Source: an uncultured Candidatus Saccharibacteria bacterium
GTDB taxonomy: Bacteria > Patescibacteriota > Minisyncoccia > Phycocordibacterales > UBA9973
Direction of reading: 5' to 3'
Length of the DNA: 64,000 bases
NCBI GenBank assembly: GCA_964527235.1
Contig: CAZGNC010000001.1
Span: 170,344-234,343, forward strand
Shown: positions 6,910 to 61,297 of the stretch, one piece after another
Layout of the letters: each line of letters starts with the position of its first letter
Position numbering within the stretch: the first letter of the stretch is position 1
Translations under genes and position numbers: made by a program
Notes under the pieces: generated by a model
Databases searched by the model: none
The model's input: the letters and a program-made list of their open reading frames with translations, nothing else
Told to the model about the DNA's origin: nothing

Positions 6910-6947
6910 GTGATAAATTATACCAATTTCTGTATATAAAAGACGTA

Positions 6948-6976
6948 GCCCCGCGGTAGCAGGGCTACGCGCGGGG
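6948..6976 (-). terminator. GC-rich hairpin plus T-run on the minus strand (terminator of the 56-aa island gene)
   Basis: gccccgcggtagc-agg-gctacgcgcgggg followed on the minus strand by cgtctttta. Confidence 0.45.
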
Positions 6977-6988
6977 CTGGTGATCAGA

Positions 6989-7159
6989 TCAACGCCAGTG
7001 TGCCTGGCCGTTGTAGCCACGGCGTTCGAGCGCGCGGCCTTCGTCTGGGGGCATCTTGAATGCGCCGAGGCTGGTGTAGGCGGTTGCCACTTCAGGTCGT
7101 GGCTGTTCGCCTGGGATGGTTGGCACGACCTTGTTTTCGGATGTGGTGCTGTCGGACAT
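6989..7159 (-). CDS. hypothetical small protein (56 aa) in GC-rich island 1
   Basis: SD GGAGGA 6 nt upstream of ATG; TTGACA-N18-CATAAT promoter upstream; hairpin terminator downstream; no family recognised (MSDSTTSENKVVPTIPGEQPRPEV...). Confidence 0.4.
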   Translation of the reverse strand: MSDSTTSENKVVPTIPGEQPRPEVATAYTSLGAFKMPPDEGRALERRGYNGQAHWR

Positions 7160-7202
7160 TGTGATCCTCCATGGGGAACGGGGTGGGGGTGTTCTGTGCT
7201 CA

Positions 7203-7262
7203 ATTATGCATATATAAGTACATATTGTCAAAGCTTGCCAAGTGGCGAAAAGAGTGTATAAA
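7203..7262. promoter_or_regulatory. divergent promoter region of island 1 (minus: TTGACA-N18-CATAAT; plus: TTGCCA-N16-TATAAA)
   Basis: AT-rich 60-bp gap between two divergent GC-rich ORFs; overlapping -35 elements tgtcaa/ttgcca. Confidence 0.35.
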
Positions 7263-7617: not shown

Positions 7618-8054
7618 TCTGGGCTTCTGCGTACCTCCCGTCGTCGAAGTAAGACGGCGGGAGGGGAAGGGAATGGTTCTTTTGTAAAAGTTAAATAGTG
7701 TGTTATCGCGGCCTCGGGAATTTATTCTCGGGGTTTTTTGGTGGAAAAATTTTGTACGCTGTTTGTGTGGTCTGGAAACAATCAAAAAGCGCCACTCCGA
7801 GGAGCGGCGCCGTACGACCGTTTGAAGGCTGGTCGTCTTACCTTTGCGCGAGCTTGTCAGCGCCATCGCCCGGTGAGGTATGGGAGACTCATACCCAGCA
7901 ACCGACCATAGGAGTAGTAGTAGTCGTGGGCATATTCCACCTCGCGGTTGCCCCTGACTTGCCAACTACGCAATGTGACAATCATTGTTACTTCCCACAC
8001 CACTATCATTCTTGCCTCCGGGTAGGGGGGGGTGAGTGAGAGTTCGCTACTGGC

Positions 8055-8252
8055 TCATTGAGCGATGAGGCCCCACAGACGAGTCAGAGCGAAATAGAAG
8101 ATACCAACCACCACGACAATGATGAGCAGTACTGCTAAACCCGCAGTCATGTCTTTGGCGGCCCTCTCGGCATCTTCTCCACAGAACCCCAGCATGCCGG
8201 GAATAAGTAAGGCGGGACATCCCGCCATCGCGAAAACCCAGAACCAGTACAT
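8055..8252 (-). CDS. small membrane protein (65 aa, two hydrophobic helices) in GC-rich island 1
   Basis: SD GGAGGG 4 nt upstream of ATG (MYWFWVFAMAGCPALL...LAVLLIIVVVVGIFYFAL); TTGACT-N17-CAATAT promoter at ~8290-8330. Confidence 0.45.
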   Translation of the reverse strand: MYWFWVFAMAGCPALLIPGMLGFCGEDAERAAKDMTAGLAVLLIIVVVVGIFYFALTRLWGLIAQ

Positions 8253-9211: not shown

Positions 9212-9279
9212 GTATGGCCAAGTGTTTTACTTAGCAGAAATATAATAACATTTTTTATCTAAATTGCAAAAATGCGAAA

Positions 9280-9309
9280 CCCCCACCCGGCGTATTGCGC
9301 GGGCGGGGG
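9280..9309 (-). terminator. hairpin plus T-run terminating the CheY/2-TM operon on the minus strand
   Basis: cccccacccg-gcgtattgcg-cgggcggggg (9 of 10 bp paired), followed on the minus strand by tttcgcattttt. Confidence 0.45.
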
Positions 9310-9329
9310 CTGTGATGATTCCTGCTTGG

Positions 9330-9704
9330 CTAGCAGGGGGGTTGAGGGTTGATGATCGCCTCGATCTTCTCCTTGAGCAGATGTGGTGTGAACGGCTTGA
9401 CGATGTAGTTGTTCACGCCTGCCTGGACCGCCGCGATGATGTCTTCTTTCGCGCTGCTGGTAGTTACCAGCAGTATGGGTACCGACTTGCCGTCGGGACG
9501 AGCACGGAGCTTGCGAATGCACTCGATGCCGGACATGACTGGCATGTTCCAGTCGACGATGACGAAATCAATCGTCTTGTCGAACTTCGTGAGTGCTTCG
9601 AAGCCATTGCTGGCCTCGACGAAATCGACGTAGCCGATCTTCTCGAGCGAGGTGGTGATGATTCGGCGCATTGTGGCGGAATCATCAACGACGAGGAATT
9701 TCAT
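9330..9704 (-). CDS. CheY-like single-domain response regulator receiver protein (GC-rich island 2)
   Basis: 124 aa; canonical receiver residues DD (7-8), phospho-acceptor D in VIVDWNMP, T in LLVTT, K in IVKPF; no output domain. Confidence 0.75.
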   Translation of the reverse strand: MKFLVVDDSATMRRIITTSLEKIGYVDFVEASNGFEALTKFDKTIDFVIVDWNMPVMSGIECIRKLRARPDGKSVPILLVTTSSAKEDIIAAVQAGVNNYIVKPFTPHLLKEKIEAIINPQPPC

Positions 9705-10029: not shown

Positions 10030-10136
10030 AGGGTATTTTATGGAAAAATTATAACCTTATGGTATAAAGAAAGTGAGTATTAGATAGTTCTGTTGGTGTA
10101 GGCAATCACCCCGCACAAGCATGGAGGTATTACGTC

Positions 10137-10322
10137 ATGCATCACGATCTTCCGGCAGGGCAAGAACACAAACGTTGCGAGCGTTGCGCTCGCAGTACTT
10201 TGCACGACGAGAATGTCTGCCAGGAGTGTGGACTTTCTGCCCCTTCAGGGCAAGTGCATGGGGCATCAATTTCCGGTGGCCAGGCGACTGCCTGGTCAAA
10301 TGGATCCGCAACCGACCAATGA
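10137..10322 (+). CDS. small zinc-ribbon-like protein (61 aa; CxxC...CxxC)
   Basis: SD GGAGGT 8 nt upstream of ATG; CERCARSTLHDENVCQECG. Confidence 0.4.
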   Translation: MHHDLPAGQEHKRCERCARSTLHDENVCQECGLSAPSGQVHGASISGGQATAWSNGSATDQ

Positions 10323-10332
10323 GGAAGAGAAG

Positions 10333-10527
10333 ATGGCTGACAGCAAGAATTCCGAAGGCGATGCGGTGAGAGGAGAGATCGAATCTTTGCGTGCAGATCT
10401 AGCGTCGTCTCCCAAGGATCCGATCGTGATTCCATCGCTCGATATCATTGGGCGATCACACCCTTTGCACCCTGATTTTGAGCCGACGGCTGTGTCGCTC
10501 ACCAATGATCGTCGTCTCACCAAGTGA
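10333..10527 (+). CDS. hypothetical acidic small protein (64 aa)
   Basis: SD GAGGAAGAG upstream of an internal ATG of the 104-aa track ORF; MADSKNSEGDAVRGEIESLRADL... Confidence 0.3.
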   Translation: MADSKNSEGDAVRGEIESLRADLASSPKDPIVIPSLDIIGRSHPLHPDFEPTAVSLTNDRRLTK

Positions 10528-10536
10528 GGTGATCGC

Positions 10537-10743
10537 ATGCCCCCACATTCGCACAAGAAAGGCAATAAGCCTCGCCGCGGAAAGAGGGAGCGCAGAGAGG
10601 CGAAACTGCAGGCCAAGCGATATGAAGAAGCAGCTCGGCGTCTTCGTGAACAAGGCCACAGCGGGAATATGAACGACGGCAGTCGGACGTACCAGGGTCC
10701 CACCTGGGGTCATCAAAGCCGGCGAAGGAGTAATTCGAAGTAG
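10537..10743 (+). CDS. highly basic small protein (68 aa, Lys/Arg-rich)
   Basis: SD GAGGTGA 5 nt upstream of ATG; MPPHSHKKGNKPRRGKRERREAKLQAKRYEEAARRLRE... Confidence 0.4.
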   Translation: MPPHSHKKGNKPRRGKRERREAKLQAKRYEEAARRLREQGHSGNMNDGSRTYQGPTWGHQSRRRSNSK

Positions 10744-10756
10744 AGGGAGAATCGAA

Positions 10757-10800
10757 GCGAGGGGCGTCAAACAACCGACGCCACCTCGCTTTTCCTTTTT
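10757..10800 (+). terminator. intrinsic terminator of the island-2 plus-strand operon
   Basis: gcgaggggcgtc-aaacaacc-gacgcc(a)cctcgc followed by ttttcctttttt. Confidence 0.55.
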
Positions 10801-10827
10801 TATGTGGCGTGTTAGTTTTATTAATAC

Positions 10828-10914
10828 GGAGGCGTGGCTGAGTGGTTGAAGGCACCGGTTTCGAAAACCGGCATTGGGGAAACCTAATCGTGAGTTCAAA
10901 TCTCACCGCCTCCG
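10828..10914 (+). tRNA. tRNA-Ser (anticodon CGA)
   Basis: GGAGGCG...CGCCTCC acceptor; anticodon stem-loop CCGGT-TTCGAAA-ACCGG; long variable arm; T-loop TTCAAAT. Confidence 0.85.
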
Positions 10915-22539: not shown

Positions 22540-22604
22540 TAAAGTTCTCCAGCATTCTCGAACTGGTTGAGACTGGAGATTCGCTCTTTCGTCGGAGGTT
22601 TCTC

Positions 22605-22703
22605 ATGGCCGCGAAGCTGAAGATGAGTCGGAAACACGGTGTCATCACCTGTGGCCGGAACCATCAGTGCGTCGGCGCCAAGCGCAATCGCCGCAACCGC
22701 TGA
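22605..22703 (+). CDS. basic 32-aa peptide with two Cys (MAAKLKMSRKHGVITCGRNHQCVGAKRNRRNR)
   Basis: SD GGAGGT 8 nt upstream of ATG; strong GC3 bias; followed by a 9-bp-stem hairpin agaccaccg...cggtggtct (22776-22805). Confidence 0.3.
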   Translation: MAAKLKMSRKHGVITCGRNHQCVGAKRNRRNR

Positions 22704-22831
22704 TGCCGCGGATCAACCAAAGGGAACGTTCGCCCCCGAACGCTCCGCCCTGGTAAGGGGAATCATGGGGGGTACAGACCACCGTCGCTTCGGCGCCGGT
22801 GGTCTCTCTCATTTATGGGAGATTTTAAATA

Positions 22832-22863
22832 TAAAAACAAACGCCGGCTCGAGGTGAGCCGGC
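22832..22863 (-). terminator. hairpin plus T-run terminator of the island-3 minus-strand gene
   Basis: gccggctc-gaggt-gagccggc with, on the minus strand, gtttgttttt downstream. Confidence 0.45.
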
Positions 22864-22894
22864 GGGACGCGATGGGGTTCGGTAGGCGTGGTGC

Positions 22895-23083
22895 CTACTT
22901 TTTTTTGTGGACAAACGACACGATCCACATGAGCCCTCCTAGGATCGCAAGGATTCCCAGGAGGAAAAAGTGCCAGAATGTGCCCAATGAGAACTTCGTC
23001 GGGCCGGGGATTGGGCTGTGCGGGCCCTGGTTGAGCTTTGAGTTGATGTTCTCAAACGGCACGTGATCCAGACGCATGTTCAC
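22895..23083 (-). CDS. small C-terminally anchored membrane protein (62 aa) in GC-rich island 3
   Basis: SD GAGGTGA 4 nt upstream of ATG; ...TFWHFFLLGILAILGGLMWIVSFVHKKK; terminator immediately after the stop. Confidence 0.45.
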   Translation of the reverse strand: MNMRLDHVPFENINSKLNQGPHSPIPGPTKFSLGTFWHFFLLGILAILGGLMWIVSFVHKKK

Positions 23084-23168
23084 CTCAGGTTGGGGTGCGA
23101 GTCTTTTCTTACTTTGACATAAAAAGCTTAAAAATCAAAACCCTTAGAGGTTTTCCACAGCTGACTAG

Positions 23169-23493: not shown

Positions 23494-25797
23494 TTGAAAC
23501 CTATGAATAATCCCAAGATTTTTAAAATAAAAGGAATGCATTGTGCCTCATGCGCTGGGATAATAGAAAGAACTTTCAAGAAAGAAGATGGTGTTATTTC
23601 TGCTGAGGTGAATTATGGAACCGAGACAGCTAAAGTCTCTTATGATGAATCCAAAACTGATCCGCACACACTGTCTTCTCATATAGAACACCTAGGATAC
23701 TCTTTAGTGATGCCTTCTGCTAGTGAAATGGGAATGTCTCAAGATGAGCATAGTGCACATCTAGGTTTAAGCCAGTCCAAAGAAGAAAAACTTGCTGAGC
23801 TTAAAGAAATGCGAACCAAGATACTCACCGCTATACCTTTGGCTATTGTGAGTATTTTAATGATGACGTATGAAATTTTAGCGAAATATCAGAAAGTTCC
23901 AGAAATGAGTATGGTGTTTGAAGAATTTTTCCATCATCTTTTACCTTTGTTCGCGACCTATATGCTTTTCGTGGTGGGTAAGCCTTATCTCTTAGGGTTT
24001 TATAGATTTTTGCGTTATGGCAAGGCCAATATGGATACACTCATAGGTATCGGTACAGTCTCTGCATATTTATATAGTTTTCTTATCTCAGCTTTTGAAG
24101 GACCACTGAGTAAATTTATAAATGTTGAAGCATCGTATTACGATGTGACTATAGTTGTTATTACTTTCATTGCTCTCGGTAAATATTTAGAAACAAAATC
24201 AAAAATAAAGACAGGAGATGCGATAGAAAAGTTGCTAAATCTACAGGCCAAGACCGCACTCGTTAGGAGGGATGGTAGAGAAATAGAAATCTCTATCACT
24301 GAAGTCGTGCATGGAGATCTGATTATCATCAAGCCCGGGGCGAAAATCCCTGTAGATGGAGTTATCACCGAAGGAGAGTCTTTTGTTGATGAAGCTTTAG
24401 TTACAGGGGAGCCGATGCCAGTAAAGAAGAAATCTGGAGACAGTGTGGTGGGAGGAACTATCAATACTAGTGGCGCATTTGTGTTCAAGGCGACCAAGGT
24501 AGGCGATGAGACTTTACTTGCTCAGATAATAACTATGGTAGAAGAAGCACAAGGAAGCCGAGCCCCTATTCAAGCACTAGCAGATAAGATTTCTGCGATT
24601 TTCGTACCGATAGTTATCGGCATCGCGTTTGTTGCGTTGGCTTTGTGGCTTGTGTTGGGAGCTGGCTCGCTTGGATTTGCTCAAGCTCTATCTTATGGTC
24701 TTGTATCTTTCGTGGGAGTGTTGGTTATTGCTTGTCCATGTGCGCTCGGTCTCGCTACTCCGACAGCTATTATCGTTGGAGTAGGCAAGGGAGCGAAAGA
24801 AGGAATCCTTATTAAAGACGCAGCGACACTACAAAAATTACATAAAGTAGATACTGTTGTTGTTGATAAGACGGGGACCATTACCATAGGCAAGCCAACT
24901 CTGGTGGATATAGAGAATTTCTCTTCGCTCGAAGATCAACAGCTGATATCGATTCTCGCTTCACTTGAAAGAAAATCCGAACATCCTATCGCGCACGCTA
25001 TTTTGAATTATGCAGAGGCCAAGAATATCACGACACAAGATGTTTTAAATTTCGAAGGCCTACAAGGTAAGGGGCTTAAAGGCAAGATTGATGGGCAAGA
25101 ATATTTCGCTGGCAATCTAAAACTCGTCCAGGATTTAGGTATTGCTTTCGATATCAAAGAAATCGAAAAATATACCATGGAAGGTAAAACCCCGGTTATT
25201 ATTGCTACAACAACGAAAGTCCTGGGCTTTGTAACAGTATCTGATGAAATAAAAACTGAGTCCAAGAAAGCTGTAGTAGATTTGCAGAAACTCGGAATCA
25301 ACGTCGTCATGTTAACCGGGGATGATGAAAAAGCTGCGAAGTACATGGCGTCACTGGTTGGGATTTCTGATGTGGTGCCGAATGTTCTACCCCAAGATAA
25401 ATTAGAAAAAATTAAAAAATTGCAGGCTCAAGGACGGGTAGTGGCGATGGCGGGAGACGGTGTCAACGACGCCCCAGCGCTTGCCCAAGCAGATGTGGGC
25501 GTGGCGATGTCTACTGGGACTGATGTTGCCATAGAGTCTGCGGGGATTACGTTGCTTCATGGCGACATTTCTAGATTAGTTAAAGCCATCAAGTTGTCCA
25601 AGATGACTATGCGAGGCATCAAGCAAAATCTCTTCTGGGCTTTCGTGTACAATATAGTCGGCATACCTTTAGCTGCGGGATTGTTTTACCCGATATTTGG
25701 CTGGTTGCTCTCTCCGGTATTTGCTGGTTTCGCTATGGCAATGTCTAGTGTTTCAGTTGTCGGAAATTCACTTCGTATTAAAAGTAAAAAATTATAA
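23494..25797 (+). CDS. copA: copper-translocating P1B-type ATPase
   Basis: 767 aa; N-terminal HMA GMHCASCAG; TM CPC motif (ACPCALG); DKTGTIT phosphorylation site; GDGVNDAPAL hinge. Confidence 0.9.
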   Translation: MKPMNNPKIFKIKGMHCASCAGIIERTFKKEDGVISAEVNYGTETAKVSYDESKTDPHTLSSHIEHLGYSLVMPSASEMGMSQDEHSAHLGLSQSKEEKLAELKEMRTKILTAIPLAIVSILMMTYEILAKYQKVPEMSMVFEEFFHHLLPLFATYMLFVVGKPYLLGFYRFLRYGKANMDTLIGIGTVSAYLYSFLISAFEGPLSKFINVEASYYDVTIVVITFIALGKYLETKSKIKTGDAIEKLLNLQAKTALVRRDGREIEISITEVVHGDLIIIKPGAKIPVDGVITEGESFVDEALVTGEPMPVKKKSGDSVVGGTINTSGAFVFKATKVGDETLLAQIITMVEEAQGSRAPIQALADKISAIFVPIVIGIAFVALALWLVLGAGSLGFAQALSYGLVSFVGVLVIACPCALGLATPTAIIVGVGKGAKEGILIKDAATLQKLHKVDTVVVDKTGTITIGKPTLVDIENFSSLEDQQLISILASLERKSEHPIAHAILNYAEAKNITTQDVLNFEGLQGKGLKGKIDGQEYFAGNLKLVQDLGIAFDIKEIEKYTMEGKTPVIIATTTKVLGFVTVSDEIKTESKKAVVDLQKLGINVVMLTGDDEKAAKYMASLVGISDVVPNVLPQDKLEKIKKLQAQGRVVAMAGDGVNDAPALAQADVGVAMSTGTDVAIESAGITLLHGDISRLVKAIKLSKMTMRGIKQNLFWAFVYNIVGIPLAAGLFYPIFGWLLSPVFAGFAMAMSSVSVVGNSLRIKSKKL

Positions 25798-25799
25798 TT

Positions 25800-26807
25800 A
25801 TGAAAAATTACACATTTCACGTTTCCGGTACGCATTGCGCATCTTGTAAAATCTTAATCGAGGATGTATTAGGCGAGCAGGATTTTGTAAAGAAAGTTAA
25901 GGTTGACCTAGAAAATAAAGTTGTTGAAGTTGTCTCAGAGATGGAACACACTCCAGAAGAGTTAGCTCAAATGCTTACAGACAAAATCAAGAACAACGGA
26001 TATGTTCTTTCTATTGAAAAAAAATTAGGGTTAAAAAAAGACGAAGAAGTTATCTGGACGGCTTTGCCTATCGGTCTTGCTGTTTTGGCGCTTTTCTTTT
26101 TACTTCAGAAGTCTGGCTTGCTTAGTTTAGGTATCAACGGTAAAGCTACCCCGACTACGAGCTTTATCATAGGTTTAGTAGCTTCAGTTTCGAGTTGCTT
26201 GGCAATCGTTGGGGGGTTGGTGCTTTCTATATCTGCGAAAATTTCTCAAGATGAAAAAAGTGATACTCGCACTTTCATTTTATTCCATATCGGGAGACTT
26301 GCGAGCTTTGCATTGCTAGGTGGAGTTCTCGGGATGTTGGGTGGAGCTATCGGGATCAATTTCACGTTGGCTACTATTTTAGGGATACTAGCTTCAGTCG
26401 TTATGATAATCTTGGGGCTAAACCTAGTAGGTGTTTTTGAGAAAAATAAAATCACCCTACCATCAGGTATATTTAGTTTCTTTCGCAAGGTAGAACATCA
26501 GACTTTCACTCCGCTGCTAGTTGGTTTCGGTACTTTCTTCCTGCCTTGTGGATTTACTCAGTCAATGCAGATTGCAGCTCTAAGTAGTGGGTCTTTCATC
26601 TCAGGATTCTTGATTATGTTTGCTTTCGCGTTAGGTACTTTGCCGGTGTTGTCTCTGCTTTCTTTCGGCTCATCATCTTTCGCGGGGAGTAAGCATGCGC
26701 CACTTTTCTTCAAATCTTCTGGTATAGTAGTTATAGGGCTAGGACTCTTTGCTTTATTCTCTGCGCTAGTCGCTCTTGGAATTATTAATCCCATTTTTAG
26801 CATTTAA
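25800..26807 (+). CDS. heavy-metal-associated (HMA, CxxC) domain fused to a polytopic membrane protein; putative metal permease or chaperone-linked transporter
   Basis: 335 aa; N-terminus GTHCASCKILIE (MxCxxC), then ~6 TM helices with conserved Cys (ASVSSCLAIV, FFLPCGFTQSM); co-operonic with copA. Confidence 0.55.
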   Translation: MKNYTFHVSGTHCASCKILIEDVLGEQDFVKKVKVDLENKVVEVVSEMEHTPEELAQMLTDKIKNNGYVLSIEKKLGLKKDEEVIWTALPIGLAVLALFFLLQKSGLLSLGINGKATPTTSFIIGLVASVSSCLAIVGGLVLSISAKISQDEKSDTRTFILFHIGRLASFALLGGVLGMLGGAIGINFTLATILGILASVVMIILGLNLVGVFEKNKITLPSGIFSFFRKVEHQTFTPLLVGFGTFFLPCGFTQSMQIAALSSGSFISGFLIMFAFALGTLPVLSLLSFGSSSFAGSKHAPLFFKSSGIVVIGLGLFALFSALVALGIINPIFSI

Positions 26808-31197: not shown

Positions 31198-31386
31198 ATG
31201 ATGAGGGTTGTTATGAAGCCGAGAAAGACAACTCAAGAAACAATCACGTTTCTTCGAGAGGGGGTAGAAATCACTTTATCCTCTCCGGTTGTTGCCATCG
31301 TTCCCGACGAGGAACGGCTGGAGTTTCTTTCTGACTCGCGCGTCGTTATCAGTCCCCGCGTCGATATTGCGACGCTTGTGAGTTGA
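31198..31386 (+). CDS. hypothetical small protein (62 aa) in GC-rich island 5
   Basis: SD AGGAG 9 nt upstream of ATG; MMRVVMKPRKTTQETITFLREGVEITLSSPVVAIVPDEERLEFL... Confidence 0.4.
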   Translation: MMRVVMKPRKTTQETITFLREGVEITLSSPVVAIVPDEERLEFLSDSRVVISPRVDIATLVS

Positions 31387-31396
31387 ATCGCCACCT

Positions 31397-31420
31397 GGCC
31401 CCCGCGACGTCGCGGGGGCC
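31397..31420. repeat. perfect 24-nt palindrome GGCCCCCGCGACGTCGCGGGGGCC in the intercistronic gap (operator or RNA hairpin candidate)
   Basis: Self-complementary over all 24 nt; no T-run follows; sits 23 nt upstream of the next SD. Confidence 0.5.
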
Positions 31421-31443
31421 TCACTGCTTAAGGAGGATATCAC

Positions 31444-31689
31444 ATGCAGACCAGGATTGAAGTAACTATCCTCAGTGACGGGCGGGTGCAGGTGGATGAG
31501 AACGGGCAGAAGTCCGTGATCACTCCACAGTCGAATGGGTTCATGTTCGCGATGAATATCAACGGGGACTACTCCCTGACCATCAGCGATCCGAAGCCGG
31601 AGCCGGCGATCCTTCCACGTGTGCCCTTGTCGAGTCTCAGTTGCTTCGACGGGGGGTTGCTTTTTCCGGAGGGAGGTGGCAACCCATGA
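31444..31689 (+). CDS. hypothetical protein (81 aa) in GC-rich island 5
   Basis: SD AAGGAGGA 7 nt upstream of ATG; MQTRIEVTILSDGRVQVDENGQKSVITPQSNGFMFAMNINGDYSL...; stop overlaps the next start (ATGA). Confidence 0.45.
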   Translation: MQTRIEVTILSDGRVQVDENGQKSVITPQSNGFMFAMNINGDYSLTISDPKPEPAILPRVPLSSLSCFDGGLLFPEGGGNP

Positions 31690-31775
31690 TCCTGCTCTTG
31701 ATGTGGGTCATCGTGGCAATCTTCGGCGGGTGGCTCGTCATGCACTCTGCCGAGTGCAAGTGGGCCGACGAGTAG
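31686..31775 (+). CDS. 29-aa hydrophobic membrane peptide (MILLLMWVIVAIFGGWLVMHSAECKWADE), translationally coupled to the upstream gene
   Basis: ATGA start/stop overlap with the upstream ORF; single TM helix; below the 60-aa threshold of the ORF track. Confidence 0.35.
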   Translation: MILLLMWVIVAIFGGWLVMHSAECKWADE

Positions 31776-31791
31776 GTGTCGGCATGCAGTA

Positions 31792-31829
31792 GGGGTCTCG
31801 CGTTCGCGCGAGGCCCCGTTTTTGTTTTT
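31792..31829 (+). terminator. intrinsic terminator of the island-5 plus-strand operon
   Basis: ggggtctcgcg-ttcg-cgcgaggcccc followed by gtttttgttttt. Confidence 0.6.
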
Positions 31830-31884
31830 ATTTATTTTATATTAAAATTAATTTGGAACAATCAACCACCAACGGAGGTGCCAC

Positions 31885-32500: not shown

Positions 32501-32580
32501 CTGTATCCCTCCCGGCAGGGATGCGATTGACTTGCCCCGTCGGTACACGATTCGCCGGCGGGGTTGCTATGTCGGTGTGT

Positions 32581-32712
32581 TCATACTGAGCAACTTTGCA
32601 TCCACACCACGATGCAAACCACGACCAGAAGTCCGATCACGTACCCTGTGCTCACCGGCATGTTGTTGTACATCCATGAGAATGCTTTCTGGGCTTTCTG
32701 GATCTGAGTCAC
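32581..32712 (-). CDS. 43-aa TM peptide, GTG start (VTQIQKAQKAFSWMYNNMPVSTGYVIGLLVVVCIVVWMQSCSV)
   Basis: SD AGGAG 9 nt upstream of GTG; GC3-rich frame; preferred over the overlapping 113-aa Arg/Ser-rich track ORF. Confidence 0.3.
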   Translation of the reverse strand: MTQIQKAQKAFSWMYNNMPVSTGYVIGLLVVVCIVVWMQSCSV

Positions 32713-32742
32713 AATTCCTACTCCTGGTGTCTAGTGAAGGAG

Positions 32743-32811
32743 TCAGGACAGCAGACTGAAAAGTAGCCCTACTCCTAGGCCGACGGCCACCACGGTTCCG
32801 AGAATCTTCAT
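32743..32811 (-). CDS. 22-aa hydrophobic peptide (MKILGTVVAVGLGVGLLFSLLS); may extend to a 41-aa form starting at 32868
   Basis: Hydrophobic ORF between two TM-peptide genes on the minus strand; no clear SD; tentative. Confidence 0.2.
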   Translation of the reverse strand: MKILGTVVAVGLGVGLLFSLLS

Positions 32812-32904
32812 CAACGGTGTCTTGGTATTGACGCGGGTCTGCTGGAGTCTGTCTTGTGGCAACCTCATTCGGCGCCGGGGGGGCGCCCTCTTGGAGTGGT
32901 TCGG

Positions 32905-33069
32905 TCATGACTTCCTCTCCTTTGTTGAAGTGGTCCCAAAGAAGGCGCTAGGTGCCTCTCCGGGGTGGAGCACTTGCCACGAACCGTAGATCGTGGCGAA
33001 GCACAGCGTGATGAGCGCAATCGCGGTGAGAGCGCTCCTGAACAGGAACCCGCCAATCTGTTCTTTCAT
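32905..33069 (-). CDS. 54-aa TM protein (MKEQIGGFLFRSALTAIALITLCFATIYGSWQVLHPGEAPSAFFGTTSTKERKS)
   Basis: Strong GC3 bias; TTGACA-N16-TAATCA promoter-like sequence upstream; weak SD; ATGA overlap with the next downstream frame. Confidence 0.35.
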   Translation of the reverse strand: MKEQIGGFLFRSALTAIALITLCFATIYGSWQVLHPGEAPSAFFGTTSTKERKS

Positions 33070-33137
33070 TGGAAGGTGCTCGCTTTTTTGGATTCAATAA
33101 AATGATTACGTTTTCAACGCCTTTTGTCAATAGCTGG

Positions 33138-34214: not shown

Positions 34215-34266
34215 TTAGTAGATATTTTAGCATTTTTTTATAAGAAAAACTTTTATAAAACGAAAG

Positions 34267-34303
34267 AGCCACACGATGGTCGGTGTGACTCAATCGTGTG
34301 GCT
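34267..34303 (-). terminator. 11-bp-stem hairpin terminator downstream of the island-9 gene (minus strand)
   Basis: agccacacgat-ggtcggtgtgactca-atcgtgtggct with a T-rich run following on the minus strand (cttt cgttttat). Confidence 0.5.
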
Positions 34304-34324
34304 TTGTTTCTTTGTGAAGATGCC

Positions 34325-34639
34325 CTAGTTGTCGTCGGGCGTCTGGAGGGGGGCGTCGTGTTCGACGTCCTCCTTCTGCTTGGCGAGGGCGATTACTTCC
34401 GCCCACTTTTCGCCGAATTCACCATCTGCTTCGAGGCCCTCGACGGGAACCTCGAACTTGATGGCTGTCTTGATGTACACGTTGACCTGCGATGGGTCAA
34501 CCTCGGCGAGCTCGACCGTCTTGTCGAATTGTTCTCCGGCGACTCCATCCAGCTCGATGTCTTCCCACTCGATGTCGTCGTACGACGCTCCAAGTACGAG
34601 AACGGCGTTGACGAACTCCTTCCTTCTTGCCCAGTTCAT
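34325..34639 (-). CDS. acidic hypothetical protein (104 aa) in GC-rich island 9
   Basis: TTGACA-N17-TAATTT promoter inside the 3' end of the upstream exonuclease gene; MNWARRKEFVNAVLVLGASYDDIEWEDIELDGVAGEQ...; no family recognised. Confidence 0.4.
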   Translation of the reverse strand: MNWARRKEFVNAVLVLGASYDDIEWEDIELDGVAGEQFDKTVELAEVDPSQVNVYIKTAIKFEVPVEGLEADGEFGEKWAEVIALAKQKEDVEHDAPLQTPDDN

Positions 34640-34705
34640 GCGGGTTCCTGTGTTGAGGGTGAGGTACTTCAAAAACAAATTAACATACCATTGTGAGTCT
34701 GTCAA

Positions 34706-56943: not shown

Positions 56944-56975
56944 TATGAAGAGGTGTTTGTAATTCAAAGTTTTAC

Positions 56976-57005
56976 TTGACTTTTAAGTATTTAGTATGGT
57001 ATACT
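56976..57005 (+). promoter_or_regulatory. sigma70-like promoter TTGACT-N18-TATACT upstream of the island-7 gene
   Basis: ttgacttttaagtatttagtatggtatact in the AT-rich gap after atpC. Confidence 0.35.
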
Positions 57006-57052
57006 GAAAAAGAAGTAGAACCACCTTCACCACCACAACTTGCGAGGTGATT

Positions 57053-57298
57053 ATGCCAGATGAGAATGAGGTCAACCACAACCCACCACTCCGACTGGAG
57101 AGCGGCACGGACGACTCGGTGGGATTTTCCGAGCTGATGGAGCTCTCGTACGGCTTAGATGAAAGAGAGTTCGTCACGTTGCTTGAGGTAACGGGAATTG
57201 TTCCTCCTCTGCCGGCCGGCATTTCCGAAGACGACGTGCTCGCGCTGGGCAGGCGCGCCGGTGAAGCAGCGCTGAAGAGAGTGAACAGACAGCGTTAA
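57053..57298 (+). CDS. acidic hypothetical protein (81 aa) in GC-rich island 7
   Basis: SD GAGGTG 3 nt upstream of ATG (MPDENEVNHNPPLRLESGTDDSVGFSELMEL...); a GTG at 57047 is an alternative start. Confidence 0.4.
   Translation: MPDENEVNHNPPLRLESGTDDSVGFSELMELSYGLDEREFVTLLEVTGIVPPLPAGISEDDVLALGRRAGEAALKRVNRQR
57086..57106 (+). repeat. 21-bp direct repeat, copy 1 (within codons ~12-18 of the island-7 ORF)
   Basis: ccactccgactggagagcggc; 20/21 identical to 57302-57322, which lies 4 nt after the ORF stop. Confidence 0.5.
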
Positions 57299-57301
57299 CT
57301 G

Positions 57302-57322
57302 CCACTCCGACTAGAGAGCGGC
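57302..57322 (+). repeat. 21-bp direct repeat, copy 2 (immediately after the island-7 ORF stop)
   Basis: ccactccgactagagagcggc; the two copies bracket almost exactly the ORF body. Confidence 0.5.
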
Positions 57323-57346
57323 TGTGGGGTGCTGTTAGTCACATAA

Positions 57347-57385
57347 AAGCCCGCATGACGATGTCTAGCGGGCTTCTGCTTTTCT
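57347..57385 (+). terminator. intrinsic terminator of the island-7 gene
   Basis: aagcccgc-atgacgatgtcta-gcgggctt followed by ctgcttttct. Confidence 0.6.
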
Positions 57386-57417
57386 AAAATTAAAAATATG
57401 CTAGAGTTTAAACCATT

Positions 57418-58092: not shown

Positions 58093-58134
58093 AAGAGAAA
58101 CCGCCTAAAGAAGCGCGGTCGCTTCTCTAGGCGG
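58093..58134 (-). terminator. hairpin terminator oriented for the minus-strand island-8 gene (its stop codon lies inside the stem)
   Basis: ccgcctaaagaagcg-cggtc-gcttctctaggcgg (one mismatch); on the minus strand followed by tttctctttt. Confidence 0.5.
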
Positions 58135-58372
58135 TGGTACGATTCCCCAAGTTGGTGGGGTATTCCTCGTCTGAGGTGCCAACCCAGACGAAGAGCTTTC
58201 CTTCGAGCCGGTAGCGTTGGGTTCTACCCAACACTCTGCTGTCTTCTCCTCCGCGGGGTTGAGCGCCTGCTCTGAGCAATGTCAGAGCTTCAGCGGTGGA
58301 GACTTCCACCGCGCCGTCCAAGGTTTCTTGGGCGGCTAGCAGCTCATTCAAAGATCGATGGCCTTTCTGCAC
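58127..58372 (-). CDS. hypothetical protein (81 aa, GTG start) in GC-rich island 8
   Basis: SD AGGAGC 6 nt upstream of GTG; VQKGHRSLNELLAAQETLDGAVEVSTAEALTLLRAGAQPRGGEDSRVLG...; no family recognised. Confidence 0.4.
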   Translation of the reverse strand: MQKGHRSLNELLAAQETLDGAVEVSTAEALTLLRAGAQPRGGEDSRVLGRTQRYRLEGKLFVWVGTSDEEYPTNLGNRTTA

Positions 58373-58430
58373 GTTTAGGCTCCTGGCTGTAATTTACAGG
58401 TAGAGTACCACAAAAATATTAAAAAGTCAA

Positions 58431-59963
58431 TTACACAAAACCTGGGAAGAAATCAGTCTTTATATGGCTTCCTGGTACGCCCATTTTTGAAAGTGTTTCT
58501 TGGAATATGGTGACCATTATGTGTGGGCCTGAGATATAGAAAATTCTTTCTTTGAAGTCCGGCATGTGTTTCTTGATCATATCTGCCGTTACGAATCCCT
58601 TTTCGCCTTGCCAATTCTCTGGTACGGTCTTTTCCTCAGAGAGAACATAAACAGTTTTCATACCTAATTCTTTTTCGGCGTTTTCGAATGTTTCTTTATA
58701 GGCAATATCTTTTTCTGTGCGACAGGAATAAAACATAACAATATCCCTTTTTTGTTTTTTGGTGAGCATGTAGTTGGTCATACTTTCGAAAGGAGTAACA
58801 CCGATACCACCGGCGATGAAGCATAATTTCGTGTTTTTATTTTCAGGCATGGTGAAATCTCCTGCTCTCTGTGATGCTACTACCACATCACCAGGCTCCA
58901 TCGAGAGAAGTTTTTTCTTAAAACTACTAGAATTGGGATAGAATTTTACTCCCATACGCAAATATTCTTCTATCGGGCTAGAAGCGATAGTGAAATACCT
59001 TCGATTGCCTCTGTTGTCCGGTTTGTCATGTTCAAGAGTCCATTCTAAGTATTGTCCTGGTTTAAATGCGAAATCAGTCTTGTTGGCTTCAAAAGAAAAG
59101 TCGTATACGCCATCAGCTATTTCTTTTTTCTCTTTTAGTTTCAGTATGTATTTTTCTTTAGGGCTGACCATATATGAAAACAAATTACCTACTACCAAAG
59201 CGAGCTCAGGAGTTGAGTATACTGAACCGATACGAATCATCGGGTCAAACAAAACTCCAACGATAGCACCGTAATACATTCGTAGTTTTTTTGTCGGTGG
59301 AGTGGTGAGAGGTTCTGTGAGCATTACAAAGGAGAAGAACAATGTAGGTGAGCTAACCAAAGAACTCCATATAAGTTGTGGGATTTGAGATATCCCATTG
59401 AAGTGGTTTATGACCGTTCCAACAAGAGAAACAGCGATGAAAGAAAGCGCCATATCAAATCTTCTAATTTTGCGAACTATCAGGAGACCGCCTACTAGGA
59501 TGAAAGGTGTCATAACTGTGGTGCTTATCCACCAGCTGGCGCTTTGGTTGATAGAAAACGCTGTTATGACTACTGCGATAGCTACTGGGTTAAAGATATG
59601 CTTCTTGCCTATAGCCATTATGTACTTTGAAGCCATAGCCCATATAGCAACCCAGAGTATAAAAAAGAAGTAGCTTAAGTCGTTAAATGATTCAGGCGGG
59701 GTGACTATCAGAGCTAGAATTAGAGCAGTAATATATAGAGATTCGTTGTTGGTCGGCGCGTTAAATGCTTTTGAGAAAGCCCAGTTTACTACGAAACACA
59801 CTAGAAGAATTATCGCAGTTGAGAGAAGCAACATACTGGGATCATAATGTAATATATCAAGATAGGAAAAGATGCTGGCGATTATAACTAGAGAGAAAAG
59901 GAAGTATAGCACCAAGCGATACATAGTTATCTGATTTAAAAAGTTGTCTATATGTTTAAGCAT
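58431..59963 (-). CDS. polytopic membrane protein fused to a C-terminal ferredoxin-NADP reductase-like FAD/NAD(P)-binding oxidoreductase domain
   Basis: 510 aa; ~8-10 N-terminal TM helices; C-terminal FNR-like motifs (RRYFTIASSP flavin-binding RxYS/T-like; FIAGGIGVTPFESM NAD-binding). Confidence 0.6.
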   Translation of the reverse strand: MLKHIDNFLNQITMYRLVLYFLFSLVIIASIFSYLDILHYDPSMLLLSTAIILLVCFVVNWAFSKAFNAPTNNESLYITALILALIVTPPESFNDLSYFFFILWVAIWAMASKYIMAIGKKHIFNPVAIAVVITAFSINQSASWWISTTVMTPFILVGGLLIVRKIRRFDMALSFIAVSLVGTVINHFNGISQIPQLIWSSLVSSPTLFFSFVMLTEPLTTPPTKKLRMYYGAIVGVLFDPMIRIGSVYSTPELALVVGNLFSYMVSPKEKYILKLKEKKEIADGVYDFSFEANKTDFAFKPGQYLEWTLEHDKPDNRGNRRYFTIASSPIEEYLRMGVKFYPNSSSFKKKLLSMEPGDVVVASQRAGDFTMPENKNTKLCFIAGGIGVTPFESMTNYMLTKKQKRDIVMFYSCRTEKDIAYKETFENAEKELGMKTVYVLSEEKTVPENWQGEKGFVTADMIKKHMPDFKERIFYISGPHIMVTIFQETLSKMGVPGSHIKTDFFPGFV

Positions 59964-60708
59964 TTATTTTTTGATAGTTTTTAAAACCTTGGGTCATAGT
60001 AGCAGTTCCGTTTTTATCCACTACATAGCCTTCGAAACCAGGTAGATTCTCTATAAAGAATATACCATTTTCTCCCATCGCAAAAGCAGCGGTAGCAAAT
60101 CTATCTGCTTCGTAAATATTAGGACCTATGACCGTTAAACTCACAATGTCCGCGACTGCATCTTTTTTATTGAGAGGGTCGTATATGTGATTGCCTCTTA
60201 TATAGTTGCCAGAAGTCGCGACACCTTTGTTTTCTACTTCTAAGATTTTTATTAATTCATCGGTATTGAATGGATTTCTGATGCCTATAGTCCAGGGCTT
60301 TCCTTCTTTATTTTTGCCAAAAGTTTCTATATCACCCCCAGCTTCAATATAAAAATTTTTATATCCTTTCTCTTTTAAAATATTTGAGGCATTGTGTATA
60401 GCCCAGCCTTTAACTAGACCAGAAGGGTCGAACAATCCATTGGGCTTCTTGATATCGAAATAGTCGTCAGTTTCGCGTTTGGTTTTTTCTGAGAGCGCAA
60501 AGACCTCCTGCATTTCTTTGCTGTATTTTTCCTCGTTAATTAACCCCATATTTATTTGGGATATTTCGCTTTCTTTTTTATACGTGCTGAATTTGTTATC
60601 AATATATGTAAAGTACTCAAAGATTACATCAAGAGATTCCTGATCTGCGCCAGCGTCAACTATCTCAACTGTAATGGGCATACCCATTATGATTCGAGTT
60701 TCTTTCAT
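59956..60708 (-). CDS. apbE: FAD:protein FMN transferase (ApbE family), short form
   Basis: 250 aa; ApbE-family pattern (GMPITVEIVD..., GIRNP..., SGNYIRGNHIYDP); stop overlaps the downstream gene start. Confidence 0.7.
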   Translation of the reverse strand: MKETRIIMGMPITVEIVDAGADQESLDVIFEYFTYIDNKFSTYKKESEISQINMGLINEEKYSKEMQEVFALSEKTKRETDDYFDIKKPNGLFDPSGLVKGWAIHNASNILKEKGYKNFYIEAGGDIETFGKNKEGKPWTIGIRNPFNTDELIKILEVENKGVATSGNYIRGNHIYDPLNKKDAVADIVSLTVIGPNIYEADRFATAAFAMGENGIFFIENLPGFEGYVVDKNGTATMTQGFKNYQKINA

Positions 60709-60718
60709 TGCTTTAGAT

Positions 60719-61297
60719 TTAAGTTCTAGCCTTCGATAGAGCAGAGGTTAAGGATTTCATAAAAGCTCTACTGGTATATGTTGCCCCAGAAACTATGTCG
60801 ACTTGGGAGCTCTGAGTACTGATTGCTTCAGAGATGAGAATTGGCATTGCGTGCTTACTTTTCTGGAGGGATGTCGATCTATCGTTAGGATAAGATAGGA
60901 AAACAATATCTACGATTTTCCCGTTTGAGATTTTAGCTTGTACCTGGACATCTCCATATGAAGCATCAGTTACGTTCCCTGTAAAAGTTCCATCCTTAAG
61001 ACCATTGGTGGTTTTGGGAGTGCTTGTTGTGGGTGTGGTGGTTGCAGGGGGTTTTACAACAGGTTTTACGGGAGTAGTGGTTGTAGGGGTAGTTGGTTTA
61101 GGCTTTACAGTCGTTGTGGTCGGCTTAGGTTCTGTAGTCGGCACTTCTTCTACAACAGTAGTGGTTTGCTTCTCTTCAGTGTTAGATGCAATTATCGGGG
61201 CAGGGTCTTTTTGAGCCAGTTCTTCGCTGGATTTTATAAGAAATGTATAAAATGCAAACAAAACAATAACTGCACCAGACAGTAAATATTTTTTCAT
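60719..61297 (-). CDS. membrane-anchored FMN-binding-domain protein (NqrC/RnfG/PplA-like), predicted flavinylation substrate
   Basis: 192 aa; N-terminal TM; Thr/Pro-rich linker; FMN_bind domain with the flavinylation-site-like motif DIVSGATYTSRAF. Confidence 0.65.
   Translation of the reverse strand: MKKYLLSGAVIVLFAFYTFLIKSSEELAQKDPAPIIASNTEEKQTTTVVEEVPTTEPKPTTTTVKPKPTTPTTTTPVKPVVKPPATTTPTTSTPKTTNGLKDGTFTGNVTDASYGDVQVQAKISNGKIVDIVFLSYPNDRSTSLQKSKHAMPILISEAISTQSSQVDIVSGATYTSRAFMKSLTSALSKART

What the first reader, a model, noticed from the sequence alone, without database searches (positions are those of the whole stretch)
58431..61297. Flavinylation-type extracytoplasmic redox module: FMN-binding anchored protein + ApbE flavin transferase + membrane FNR-like reductase
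Seen in sequence. Three co-directional, partly overlapping genes are present. The first is a TM-anchored protein with a Thr/Pro-rich linker and an FMN_bind domain carrying an ApbE-substrate-like motif (SGATYTS). The second is a short ApbE FAD:protein FMN transferase. The third is a 510-aa polytopic membrane protein whose C-terminus is a ferredoxin-NADP-reductase-like FAD/NAD(P) module (RRYFTIASSP, GGIGVTPF). By established knowledge of NQR/RNF complexes and the Listeria PplA/FmnB extracellular-electron-transfer system, ApbE-dependent flavinylation marks extracytosolic electron-transfer proteins. In a streamlined genome that otherwise shows only F-type ATPase and fermentative genes, a membrane NAD(P)H-linked flavin electron conduit is a notable respiratory-like capability. 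The specific fusion of a large TM domain to an FNR-like domain is not one I can assign to a characterised family.
Basis: partly seen in the sequence, partly recalled or inferred. Interest (0 to 1): 0.55.

Follow-up and report, generated by a model that had tools for sequence, protein, structure and literature searches.

The report
Known flavin electron conduit, leaderless ApbE
These three genes encode an already described but never experimentally tested "NQR/RNF-like" system, predicted to carry electrons from NAD(P)H inside the cell to a flavin-carrying protein outside; the one unusual feature is that its flavin-attaching enzyme has no export signal.

Summary
In detail: three co-directional minus-strand genes encode an anchored FMN_bind protein (192 aa), a 250-aa ApbE, and a 510-aa membrane::FNR fusion.

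It is an NqrB/RnfD-like domain, shown by Pfam PF03116, a 93.8% profile match to E. coli RsxD, and a modelled fold that hits only RnfD and NqrB chains. The trio therefore matches the "NQR/RNF-like" class defined by Méheust et al. 2021 (eLife) and modelled in a 2024 follow-up. That class is known only from bioinformatics.

- **Lost flavin site.** The RnfD loop that carries the flavinylated Thr187 has no counterpart in the fusion.
- **Prevalence.** The trio is syntenic in at least 582 species genomes of Patescibacteria and Chloroflexota, so the 127 clusters in the survey are probably an undercount.
- **Leaderless ApbE.** All 69 orthologues analysed are short and lack a signal peptide, yet keep the catalytic Ser/His/Asp. 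Their substrate looks exported, which is unexplained.
- **No acceptor.** No electron-acceptor gene recurs near the trio. An ECF sigma factor flanks it in 19 of 72 loci.

Verdict: a new member of a known kind, of modest interest.

The parts
60719..61297 (-). NqrC/RnfG-like FMN_bind protein (192 aa). It has an N-terminal signal anchor (residues 5-23, nt 61229-61285), a Pro/Thr-rich linker (residues 24-100) and an FMN_bind domain (residues 115-187).
   Evidence: Pfam PF04205 E 2e-10 and a weak TIGR01947 rnfG match. Hydropathy shows one TM segment. Anchor charge bias predicts N-in/C-out in 57 of 61 orthologues.
60779..60781 (-). Codon of Thr173, the predicted FMN phosphoester attachment site in D167-I-V-S-G-A-T173.
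   Evidence: It matches the ApbE motif D-x-x-[ST]-G-A-[ST] (review PMC12052999). 72 of 75 orthologues keep x-x-x-[ST]-G-A-[ST] at this position.
59956..60708 (-). Leaderless mini-ApbE (FAD:protein FMN transferase, 250 aa). Catalytic residues are S166, H174 and D202.
   Evidence: Pfam PF02424 E 5e-42. PDB sequence matches to ApbE structures 6nxi, 4xgw and 2o18. The triad is invariant in 69 of 69 orthologues. There is no N-terminal extension or TM segment, whereas the E. coli control shows a 36-residue hydrophobic leader.
59154..59963 (-). NqrB/RnfD-like membrane domain of the fusion protein (residues 1-270). It lacks the flavinylated loop of NqrB/RnfD.
   Evidence: PF03116 E 2.4e-12. Family profile vs PDB hits only A. 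vinelandii RnfD 8ahx_D. hhalign vs E. coli RsxD gives 93.8% probability. The AF2 model (pLDDT 82.6) hits only RnfD and NqrB chains in Foldseek, TM-score 0.58-0.72. The loop deletion is shown.
58431..59150 (-). NqrF-like FAD/NAD(P)H (FNR-type) cytoplasmic module of the fusion protein (residues 272-510, plus the stop codon). It has no 2Fe-2S domain.
   Evidence: PF00175 E 5e-21 and PF00970 E 8e-4. The best PDB sequence and fold matches are NqrF FAD domains, cytochrome b5 reductase and flavohaemoglobin. No Cys is invariant in 65 family members.
58100..58135 (-). Terminator-like hairpin (16-bp stem, 9 GC pairs, T-tail), the probable 3' end of the trio's transcript.
   Evidence: Consensus scan; a pattern match only.
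58136..58430 (-). GC-rich structured spacer between the fusion stop codon and the terminator. It may be a 3'-UTR or a separate unknown RNA, and whether it belongs to the system is uncertain.
   Evidence: GC 0.54 in a ~41% GC window. RNA folding z-score is -6.4. It is absent from the closest relative L007 and from L001/L004. No Rfam match.

Best explanation
The three genes form an operon for an 'NQR/RNF-like' two-subunit, all-flavin transmembrane electron conduit plus its dedicated flavin transferase. Shown: the domain architecture, the motifs and the conservation. Inferred: the pathway below. NAD(P)H is oxidised in the cytoplasm at the NqrF-like FAD module of the 510-aa protein. Electrons then cross the membrane through non-covalently bound flavin(s) in the NqrB/RnfD-like domain, which has lost its own covalent-FMN loop. 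They reach FMN held covalently on Thr173 of the NqrC/RnfG-like protein. That protein sits outside the membrane on an N-terminal anchor and a 76-residue Pro/Thr leash. It can probably dock into the outward-facing pocket of the NqrB-like domain and swing out to an acceptor. ApbE uses FAD and Mg2+ to attach the FMN. The final acceptor is not encoded in the cluster. The likely physiological role is an electron sink that regenerates NAD(P)+, or that supplies reducing power to the envelope (for example to Fe(III), free flavins or oxidants) in a fermentative Patescibacteria cell. Where flavinylation takes place is unresolved, because ApbE has no export signal.
For: The domain set is PF04205, PF02424, and PF03116+PF00970+PF00175. 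This is exactly the operational definition of the NQR/RNF-like system in PMC8238504, and the two-subunit model in PMC10979944. The membrane half has the NqrB/RnfD fold. The FNR half is closest to NqrF. RsxD residues ~143-216, which include the flavinylated T187, have no counterpart, and the membrane half contains no [ST]GA[ST]. The FMN_bind motif and the ApbE catalytic triad are conserved. The anchor is predicted N-in/C-out in 57 of 61 orthologues. K/R-rich loops at residues 116-125, 163-170 and 224-229 place the shortened loop 139-151 on the outside and the FNR module on the inside; this is an inference from the sequence and the AF2 helices. No Cys is invariant across 65 family members, which argues against Fe-S centres and fits an all-flavin path. 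Gene order is conserved across Patescibacteria and Chloroflexota.
Against: No member of this class has been tested biochemically in the papers read here. ApbE lacks any signal peptide, lipobox or TM segment in all 69 orthologues, which fits poorly with an extracytosolic substrate. No acceptor, quinone or cytochrome gene is linked to the trio. The direction of electron flow, the choice between NADH and NADPH, and flavin occupancy of the NqrB-like domain are all inferred. Only 64 kb of the genome was visible.
Confidence: 0.68

Rival explanations
1. The system faces inward. The FMN_bind domain is cytoplasmic and is flavinylated there by the cytosolic ApbE. It relays electrons between the FNR module and the cytoplasmic face of the NqrB-like domain, which then passes them to a membrane or external acceptor.
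For: ApbE has no export signal or TM segment in 69 of 69 orthologues, while the E. coli control does. Cytosolic ApbEs that modify cytosolic FMN_bind domains are known, for example the Klebsiella fumarate reductase (review PMC12052999).
Against: The anchor charge bias gives N-in/C-out in 57 of 61 orthologues, and only one carries a Tat-like motif. The Pro/Thr/Ser-rich linker is typical of exported proteins. NqrC and RnfG are periplasmic, and the published AF-multimer model places the subunit outside. The residual loop of the NqrB-like pocket is predicted to face outward (inference).
Confidence: 0.1
2. The conduit is ion-coupled or runs in reverse. The NqrB/RnfD-like domain keeps the ion path of NQR/RNF. 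Electron passage would then either move Na+/H+ or be driven by the membrane potential that the adjacent ATP synthase could maintain, possibly reducing NAD(P)+ from an external donor.
For: The NqrB/RnfD fold is retained. The acidic residue of the RnfD 'TDP' motif is kept as an invariant E217 in 'TEPLTTPP'. The ATP synthase operon is adjacent in the window.
Against: ATP-synthase adjacency occurs only in the seven closest loci, so it is lineage synteny. The NqrD/E or RnfA/E partners of the pumps are absent from the cluster in about 70 loci. No ion-site residues could be tested here.
Confidence: 0.08
3. The ApbE-like protein is mainly an FAD pyrophosphatase or flavin-trafficking enzyme (like Treponema Ftp) that supplies FMN in the cytoplasm. 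The FMN_bind protein would then bind flavin non-covalently or be modified by another enzyme.
For: Some ApbE homologues hydrolyse FAD (PMC12052999). This one is atypical: it lacks a ~51-residue internal segment and an 8-residue loop between the catalytic Ser and His. Asn replaces the motif's 'strictly conserved' Asp in 25 of 75 substrates.
Against: ApbE is tightly linked to FMN_bind, usually by a short gap or overlap. The acceptor [ST]-G-A-[ST] is kept in 72 of 75 substrates and the transferase triad is invariant. The window's own motif is the full consensus D-I-V-S-G-A-T.
Confidence: 0.05
4. The genes are a degenerate fragment of a canonical six-subunit Na+-NQR or RNF pump.
For: All three redox parts have NQR counterparts: NqrB-, NqrC- and NqrF-like.
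Against: No NqrA/D/E or RnfA/B/C/E genes lie in the cluster. The fusion architecture and its ~505-aa length are conserved across about 586 clusters at 50% identity and at least 582 species genomes. The 2Fe-2S domain of NqrF and the flavinylated loop of NqrB are absent throughout.
Confidence: 0.02

Closest known systems
NQR/RNF-like flavinylation-associated system (Méheust et al. 2021, eLife, PMC8238504; AlphaFold-multimer model of the Ktedonobacter racemifer complex, PMC10979944)
   Same: The definition matches exactly: an NqrB/RnfD (PF03116)::NAD_binding_1 (PF00175) fusion next to FMN_bind and ApbE genes. There are two apparent subunits. The NqrB/RnfD flavinylation site is not conserved. The reported hosts include the candidate phyla radiation.
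   Different: Nothing differs in architecture. The family is far more common in Patescibacteria and Chloroflexota than the 127 clusters reported, probably because the survey required a predicted signal peptide or lipobox.
Na+-translocating NADH:quinone oxidoreductase (Vibrio cholerae NqrA-F; e.g. PDB 7xk3, 8a1t)
   Same: Homologous modules: an NqrB-like membrane fold, an NqrC-like FMN_bind subunit with a Thr-linked FMN motif, an NqrF-like FAD/NADH module, and ApbE-dependent maturation.
   Different: NqrA, NqrD and NqrE are absent. There is no 2Fe-2S domain. There is no covalent FMN site in the NqrB-like part. The NqrB- and NqrF-like parts are fused into one chain. Electron flow is presumed to be one-way outward rather than semicircular to quinone. 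Ion pumping is unproven.
RNF complex (RnfD/RnfG; PDB 8ahx, 7zc6, 9eri; E. coli RsxD/RsxG)
   Same: RnfD gives the best fold and profile matches for the membrane domain. The FMN_bind protein gives a weak rnfG match.
   Different: RsxD residues ~143-216, which include the flavinylated T187, are missing. RnfA, B, C and E are absent. The predicted donor is NAD(P)H through an FNR module rather than ferredoxin/NADH through RnfB/C.
Listeria monocytogenes flavin-based extracellular electron transfer (FmnB, PplA, Ndh2, EetA/B)
   Same: It works alike in outline: ApbE-type flavinylation of a surface-anchored FMN_bind protein that takes NADH-derived electrons out of a monoderm, fermentative cell.
   Different: The membrane components are unrelated (Ndh2, quinone and EetA/B versus the NqrB-like::FNR fusion). 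FmnB is an exported lipoprotein supplied with FAD by an ECF transporter (PMC9973259), whereas the ApbE here has no export signal.
NOX/FRE-type and MsrQ-like::NAD_binding or PepSY-like::NAD_binding transmembrane reductases
   Same: The design logic is the same: a membrane electron-transfer domain fused to a cytoplasmic FNR-type NAD(P)H module. Streptococcus NOX appears among the full-length fold matches.
   Different: Those proteins use bis-haem membrane domains. Here the membrane domain has the NqrB/RnfD fold and no conserved Cys. This is analogy, not homology, for the membrane half.
Cytoplasmic ApbE of Klebsiella pneumoniae (flavinylates a soluble fumarate reductase; review PMC12052999)
   Same: It is an ApbE without a signal peptide.
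   Different: Its substrate is a cytoplasmic enzyme, whereas the substrate here has a signal anchor and an exported-type linker.

Membership tests
NQR/RNF-like flavinylation system (Méheust 2021) | [quoted passage not shown] | tested here: met
   PF03116 E 2.4e-12 and PF00175 E 5e-21 in the 510-aa protein. The fold of residues 1-270 matches only RnfD and NqrB chains.
NQR/RNF-like flavinylation system (Méheust 2021) | Encoded within five genes of an ApbE or FMN_bind gene | tested here: met
   FMN_bind and ApbE lie directly upstream in the same orientation. The same order is seen in almost every related locus with full flanks.
NQR/RNF-like flavinylation system (Méheust 2021) | [quoted passage not shown] | tested here: inconclusive
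   FMN_bind has an N-terminal hydrophobic anchor (KD 1.9-2.3) that a predictor may or may not call a signal peptide. ApbE has none. SignalP was not available.
NQR/RNF-like flavinylation system (2024 follow-up) | The flavinylated Thr of NqrB/RnfD is not conserved in the -like subunit | tested here: met
   Fusion residues 64-144 align to RsxD 66-142, and fusion 141-266 to RsxD 217-334. The loop holding T187 is absent and the membrane half has no [ST]GA[ST].
ApbE FAD:protein FMN transferase | ApbE domain with the catalytic Ser/His/Asp (V. cholerae S241/H257/D285) | tested here: met
   PF02424 E 5e-42. S166, H174 and D202 align to the triad and are invariant in 69 of 69 orthologues.
ApbE FAD:protein FMN transferase | N-terminal lipoprotein or secretion signal (typical of characterised exported ApbEs, though not universal) | tested here: not met
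   There is no extension before the first beta-strand and no TM segment. The E. coli control shows a 36-residue leader with a lipobox.
ApbE FAD:protein FMN transferase | Mg2+- and FAD-dependent transfer of FMN to the target Thr/Ser | not testable with these tools
   This needs co-expression or an in vitro assay.
NqrC/RnfG-type FMN_bind flavinylation substrate | FMN_bind domain carrying D-x-x-[ST]-G-A-[ST] | tested here: met
   PF04205 E 2e-10. The window has D167-I-V-S-G-A-T173. 72 of 75 orthologues keep [ST]-G-A-[ST].
NqrC/RnfG-type FMN_bind flavinylation substrate | N-terminal membrane anchor with the domain outside the cytoplasm | tested here: inconclusive
   The anchor is present and charge bias gives N-in/C-out in 57 of 61 orthologues. 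This is a prediction only, and the leaderless ApbE argues the other way.
Canonical Na+-NQR | Six subunits NqrA-F, including NqrD/E and the 2Fe-2S domain of NqrF | tested here: not met
   Only three genes are in the cluster. The neighbours are a PriA-like helicase and rsmI. No Cys is conserved in the fusion. No such neighbours recur in 72 loci. The rest of the genome was not visible.
Canonical RNF | RnfA, B, C and E subunits together with a flavinylated RnfD | tested here: not met
   Same evidence as for NQR. The loop of RnfD that carries the flavinylated Thr is also absent.

The most novel reading that the evidence does not exclude
The leaderless mini-ApbE is a family-wide trait. That would mean the FMN is attached in the cytoplasm, to the short C-terminal motif, before or during Sec-dependent export of the anchored protein. 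An extracytosolic flavoprotein would then mature without any exported ApbE or FAD exporter, which suits minimal CPR genomes. It would also mean that surveys filtered on signal peptides have under-counted flavin-based surface electron transfer in Patescibacteria and Chloroflexota.
Probability: 0.3. Interest if true: 0.55.

Novelty: new member of a known kind. Interest (0 to 1): 0.3.

Why it matters
Patescibacteria are generally regarded as fermenters without electron-transport chains. A widespread, self-contained NAD(P)H-to-surface flavin conduit would give them a way to dispose of reducing equivalents or to reduce external substrates such as iron, flavins, oxidants, or something on a host cell. 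The class has been published but never tested, so this locus adds no new concept. The analysis does give three practical leads. First, the family is large and compact: two subunits of about 190 and 510 aa plus a 250-aa transferase, which makes it a good target for reconstitution. Second, its ApbE is always leaderless, which questions where flavinylation happens. Third, the 2021 statement that CPR are "strikingly underrepresented" for extracytosolic flavinylation may partly reflect the signal-peptide filter used in that survey.

Tried and rejected
- **'QSAS' as a cryptic flavinylation site.** I considered residues 140-143 of the fusion as a degenerate flavinylation site. hhalign places the SASWW segment that contains it opposite RsxD 217-222, downstream of the flavinylated loop, and one family member has Asn at that Ser position. 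Rejected.
- **Functional link to the ATP synthase operon.** The adjacency occurs only in the seven closest relatives, L007-L013. It is lineage synteny.
- **FMN_bind-ApbE read-through or frameshift fusion supplying an export signal.** The spacing between the two genes varies between loci: a 10-nt gap, a 1-nt gap, a 4-nt overlap. No conserved fusion exists.
- **ApbE as a truncated pseudogene.** Its length is about 241-262 aa throughout and the catalytic triad is invariant. Rejected.
- **Full-length fold search.** It was dominated by the FNR half and said nothing about the membrane half. A separate model of residues 1-270 solved this.
- **Sequence-only PDB search.** The family profile reached only one RnfD, and only over its C-terminal half.
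- **eLife supplementary tables.** The copies held as text did not contain the per-cluster rows for NQR/RNF-like systems.
- **Rfam on the GC-rich spacers.** Scans at gathering and at E<=1 found nothing credible.
- **Literature search for CPR-specific discussion of this module.** It returned nothing beyond the two flavinylation papers and the ApbE review.
Full report
**Observation**

The three ORFs are on the minus strand exactly as described: 60719-61297 (192 aa), 59956-60708 (250 aa) and 58431-59963 (510 aa). A 10-nt gap separates the first two genes, and the last two overlap by 8 nt. Pfam gives FMN_bind (E 2e-10) for the first protein and ApbE (E 5e-42) for the second. NCBIfam agrees, with weak rnfG, rnfD/RsxD and nqrF matches. 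All the quoted motifs are present.

**What the 510-aa protein is**

The C-terminal half is an FNR-type module. Its best solved relatives by sequence and by fold are NqrF FAD/NADH domains, cytochrome b5 reductase and flavohaemoglobin.

The N-terminal half is NqrB/RnfD-like:
- A 16-sequence family profile hits only Azotobacter RnfD in the PDB.
- hhalign against E. coli RsxD gives 93.8% probability, aligning fusion 141-266 to RsxD 217-334.
- An AlphaFold model of residues 1-270 (pLDDT 82.6, pTM 0.81) matches only RnfD and NqrB chains in Foldseek. The top 15 hits have TM-scores of 0.58-0.72, and the next hits fall to E of about 1.

A weak but collinear BLASTP alignment links fusion 64-144 to RsxD 66-142, including the shared FNP motif. 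Together with the hhalign result, this leaves RsxD residues ~143-216 without a counterpart. That stretch contains the flavinylated Thr187 (…GISQAT187PLD). The membrane half has no [ST]GA[ST] motif. No Cys is invariant across 65 family members, so the protein has no NqrF-type 2Fe-2S centre and the electron path is presumably all-flavin.

**Known class**

Méheust et al. 2021 (PMC8238504) define an "NQR/RNF-like" system by exactly this PF03116::PF00175 fusion inside a flavinylation gene cluster. They report 127 clusters, mainly in Actinobacteria and the candidate phyla radiation (CPR). [quoted passage not shown]

The 2024 follow-up (PMC10979944) models the Ktedonobacter complex with AlphaFold-multimer. 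It notes that the NqrB/RnfD flavinylation site is not conserved. It suggests that the FMN on the NqrC/RnfG-like subunit samples the flavin pocket of the NqrB-like subunit. No biochemical test of this class appears in those papers. The window's trio is therefore a member of a published, experimentally uncharacterised class.

**Distribution and synteny**

The fusion protein has more than 7,800 database relatives. The closest are all about 505-510 aa and carry Patescibacteria, Paceibacteria or Minisyncoccia labels. A profile search of 1.8 billion cluster representatives finds 586 clusters at E<=1e-30. These cover many Patescibacteria lineages and, at 51-55% identity, Chloroflexota including Ktedonobacteria, Anaerolineae and Chloroflexia.

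Across the 80 fetched loci the order FMN_bind, ApbE, fusion holds almost everywhere the flanks are long enough. The 2021 survey kept only clusters in which a target gene had a predicted signal peptide or lipobox. That filter probably explains both its low count and its remark that CPR are under-represented.

**Flavinylation machinery**

The window's FMN_bind protein carries the full consensus D167-I-V-S-G-A-T173. Of 75 distinct orthologues, 72 keep x-x-x-[ST]-G-A-[ST] near the C-terminus. The first position is Asp in 44 and Asn in 25.

The three residues that the ApbE review names as conserved in V. cholerae ApbE are S241, H257 and D285. They map to S166, H174 and D202 here and are invariant in 69 of 69 orthologues. 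The short ApbE is therefore not a pseudogene.

It is nevertheless atypical:
- Every orthologue starts directly at the first beta-strand.
- Where a maximal ORF extends 20-51 residues further upstream, the extra stretch is hydrophilic.
- The protein has no TM segment.
- Compared with E. coli ApbE it lacks the lipoprotein leader, a ~51-residue internal segment, and an 8-residue loop between the catalytic Ser and His.
- The same method detects the E. coli leader as a 36-residue extension with KD 2.0, so the negative result is real.

**Topology**

The FMN_bind anchor is predicted N-in/C-out in 57 of 61 orthologues with a strong TM segment, and only one has a Tat-like motif. Linkers range from 3 to 194 residues (median 55) and are about 40% Pro/Thr/Ser.

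In the fusion, K/R-rich loops at residues 116-125, 163-170 and 224-229, together with the cytoplasmic FNR module, put the shortened loop 139-151 on the outer face. This is an inference from the sequence and the helices of the AF2 model (pLDDT 88.3). The pocket and the FMN_bind domain are therefore both predicted to lie outside, while ApbE looks cytosolic. This mismatch is the one unexplained feature, and the text of the two flavinylation papers does not discuss it.

There are three possible resolutions:
- Flavinylation happens before or during export. The review states that a seven-residue motif is enough for ApbE.
- ApbE is exported by an unconventional route.
- The FMN_bind domain actually faces inward.

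**Context and acceptor**

Downstream, rsmI and then a complete F1Fo ATP synthase operon converge on the trio. Upstream lies a PriA-like helicase. The ATP-synthase adjacency is limited to the seven closest relatives, so it is lineage synteny rather than a functional link.

Clustering the neighbour ORFs of 72 non-redundant loci shows no recurrent reductase, iron transporter or cytochrome. The only recurrent real neighbours are an ECF-type sigma-70 factor and small membrane proteins. The sigma factor is present in 19 loci, always co-directional with the trio, and either directly flanking it or one small gene away. The window has no such sigma factor.

The rest of the window is housekeeping genes plus a TrxR-like flavoprotein, a nitroreductase, an FAD-linked oxidase, a class II FBP aldolase, and a CopA-like ATPase next to an HMA::DsbD_2 membrane protein. 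No quinone or cytochrome genes were seen. The window holds only one ApbE.

**Mechanism proposed**

NAD(P)H reduces FAD in the NqrF-like module in the cytoplasm. Electrons cross through non-covalent flavin(s) in the NqrB-like domain to FMN on Thr173 of the tethered NqrC-like domain outside, and from there to an unknown acceptor. This runs the NqrB part of the NQR pathway in reverse. The architecture, motifs and conservation are shown. The direction of flow, the cofactor occupancy, the acceptor and the physiological role (NAD(P)+ regeneration or reduction of envelope substrates) are inferred.

**Verdict**

The "unassignable" domain can be assigned, and the system has already been described. It is a new member of a known kind. 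The residual interest lies in the family-wide leaderless mini-ApbE and in the under-appreciated prevalence of the system in Patescibacteria and Chloroflexota.

Noticed in passing
window 58095-58430: A GC-rich (0.54) spacer lies between the convergent stop codons of rsmI and the fusion gene. It is absent from the closest relative (L007, 91% identity) and from L001/L004, where the two genes abut or overlap. It folds far better than shuffled controls (z -6.4 on either strand) and ends in a strong minus-strand terminator hairpin at 58135-58100. No Rfam family matches. It may be an unknown structured RNA or a 3'-UTR.
   Followed up: partly
window 56944-57417: A second GC-rich spacer (overall 0.49; core 57051-57400 at 0.585) lies between atpC and rsmI. 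It is absent from relatives L008 and L009, where those genes are adjacent. It shows no sequence similarity to the other spacer and has no Rfam match.
   Followed up: partly
window 6901-7250, 7701-8250, 9251-9700, 10101-10850, 22551-23100, 31251-31850, 32501-33100, 34251-34650: There are further GC-rich patches (0.53-0.645) in a window that averages about 41-42% GC. Rfam finds only tRNAs among them. Several lie between genes, for example 22551-23100 between a Mur ligase and the P-type ATPase. They may be unannotated structured RNAs or inserted elements.
   Followed up: no
related loci, e.g. L014:5542-7053, L024:2050-2616, L046:5585-7115, L070:2118-2714: An ECF-type sigma-70 factor lies co-directional with the trio in 19 of 72 related loci, directly flanking it or one gene away. 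It is often accompanied by small membrane proteins without Pfam matches (134 aa, 159 aa) and one of 234 aa with a weak DUF5818 match. This hints at envelope-stress regulation. The window has no such sigma factor.
   Followed up: partly
window 23494-26807: A CopA-like heavy-metal P-type ATPase (HMA + E1-E2 ATPase) is followed directly by a protein that fuses an HMA metal-binding domain to a DsbD_2 membrane domain. This is an unusual pairing that could move metal ions or reducing equivalents across the membrane.
   Followed up: no
FMN_bind orthologues in L007-L086 (motif in the last 45 residues): The review calls the first Asp of the ApbE motif D-x-x-[ST]-G-A-[ST] strictly conserved. In this family it is Asn in 25 of 75 orthologues and His, Arg or Ala in three more. 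This suggests that the mini-ApbE has a relaxed or shifted motif preference.
   Followed up: partly
record titles (e.g. L035, L044, L046, L056, L061, L077; L007, L017, L019): Several MAG contigs that carry this typically Patescibacteria/Chloroflexota trio are labelled 'uncultured Gammaproteobacteria' or 'Candidatus Saccharibacteria' in the public records. These labels look unreliable and should not be used for taxonomic conclusions.
   Followed up: no
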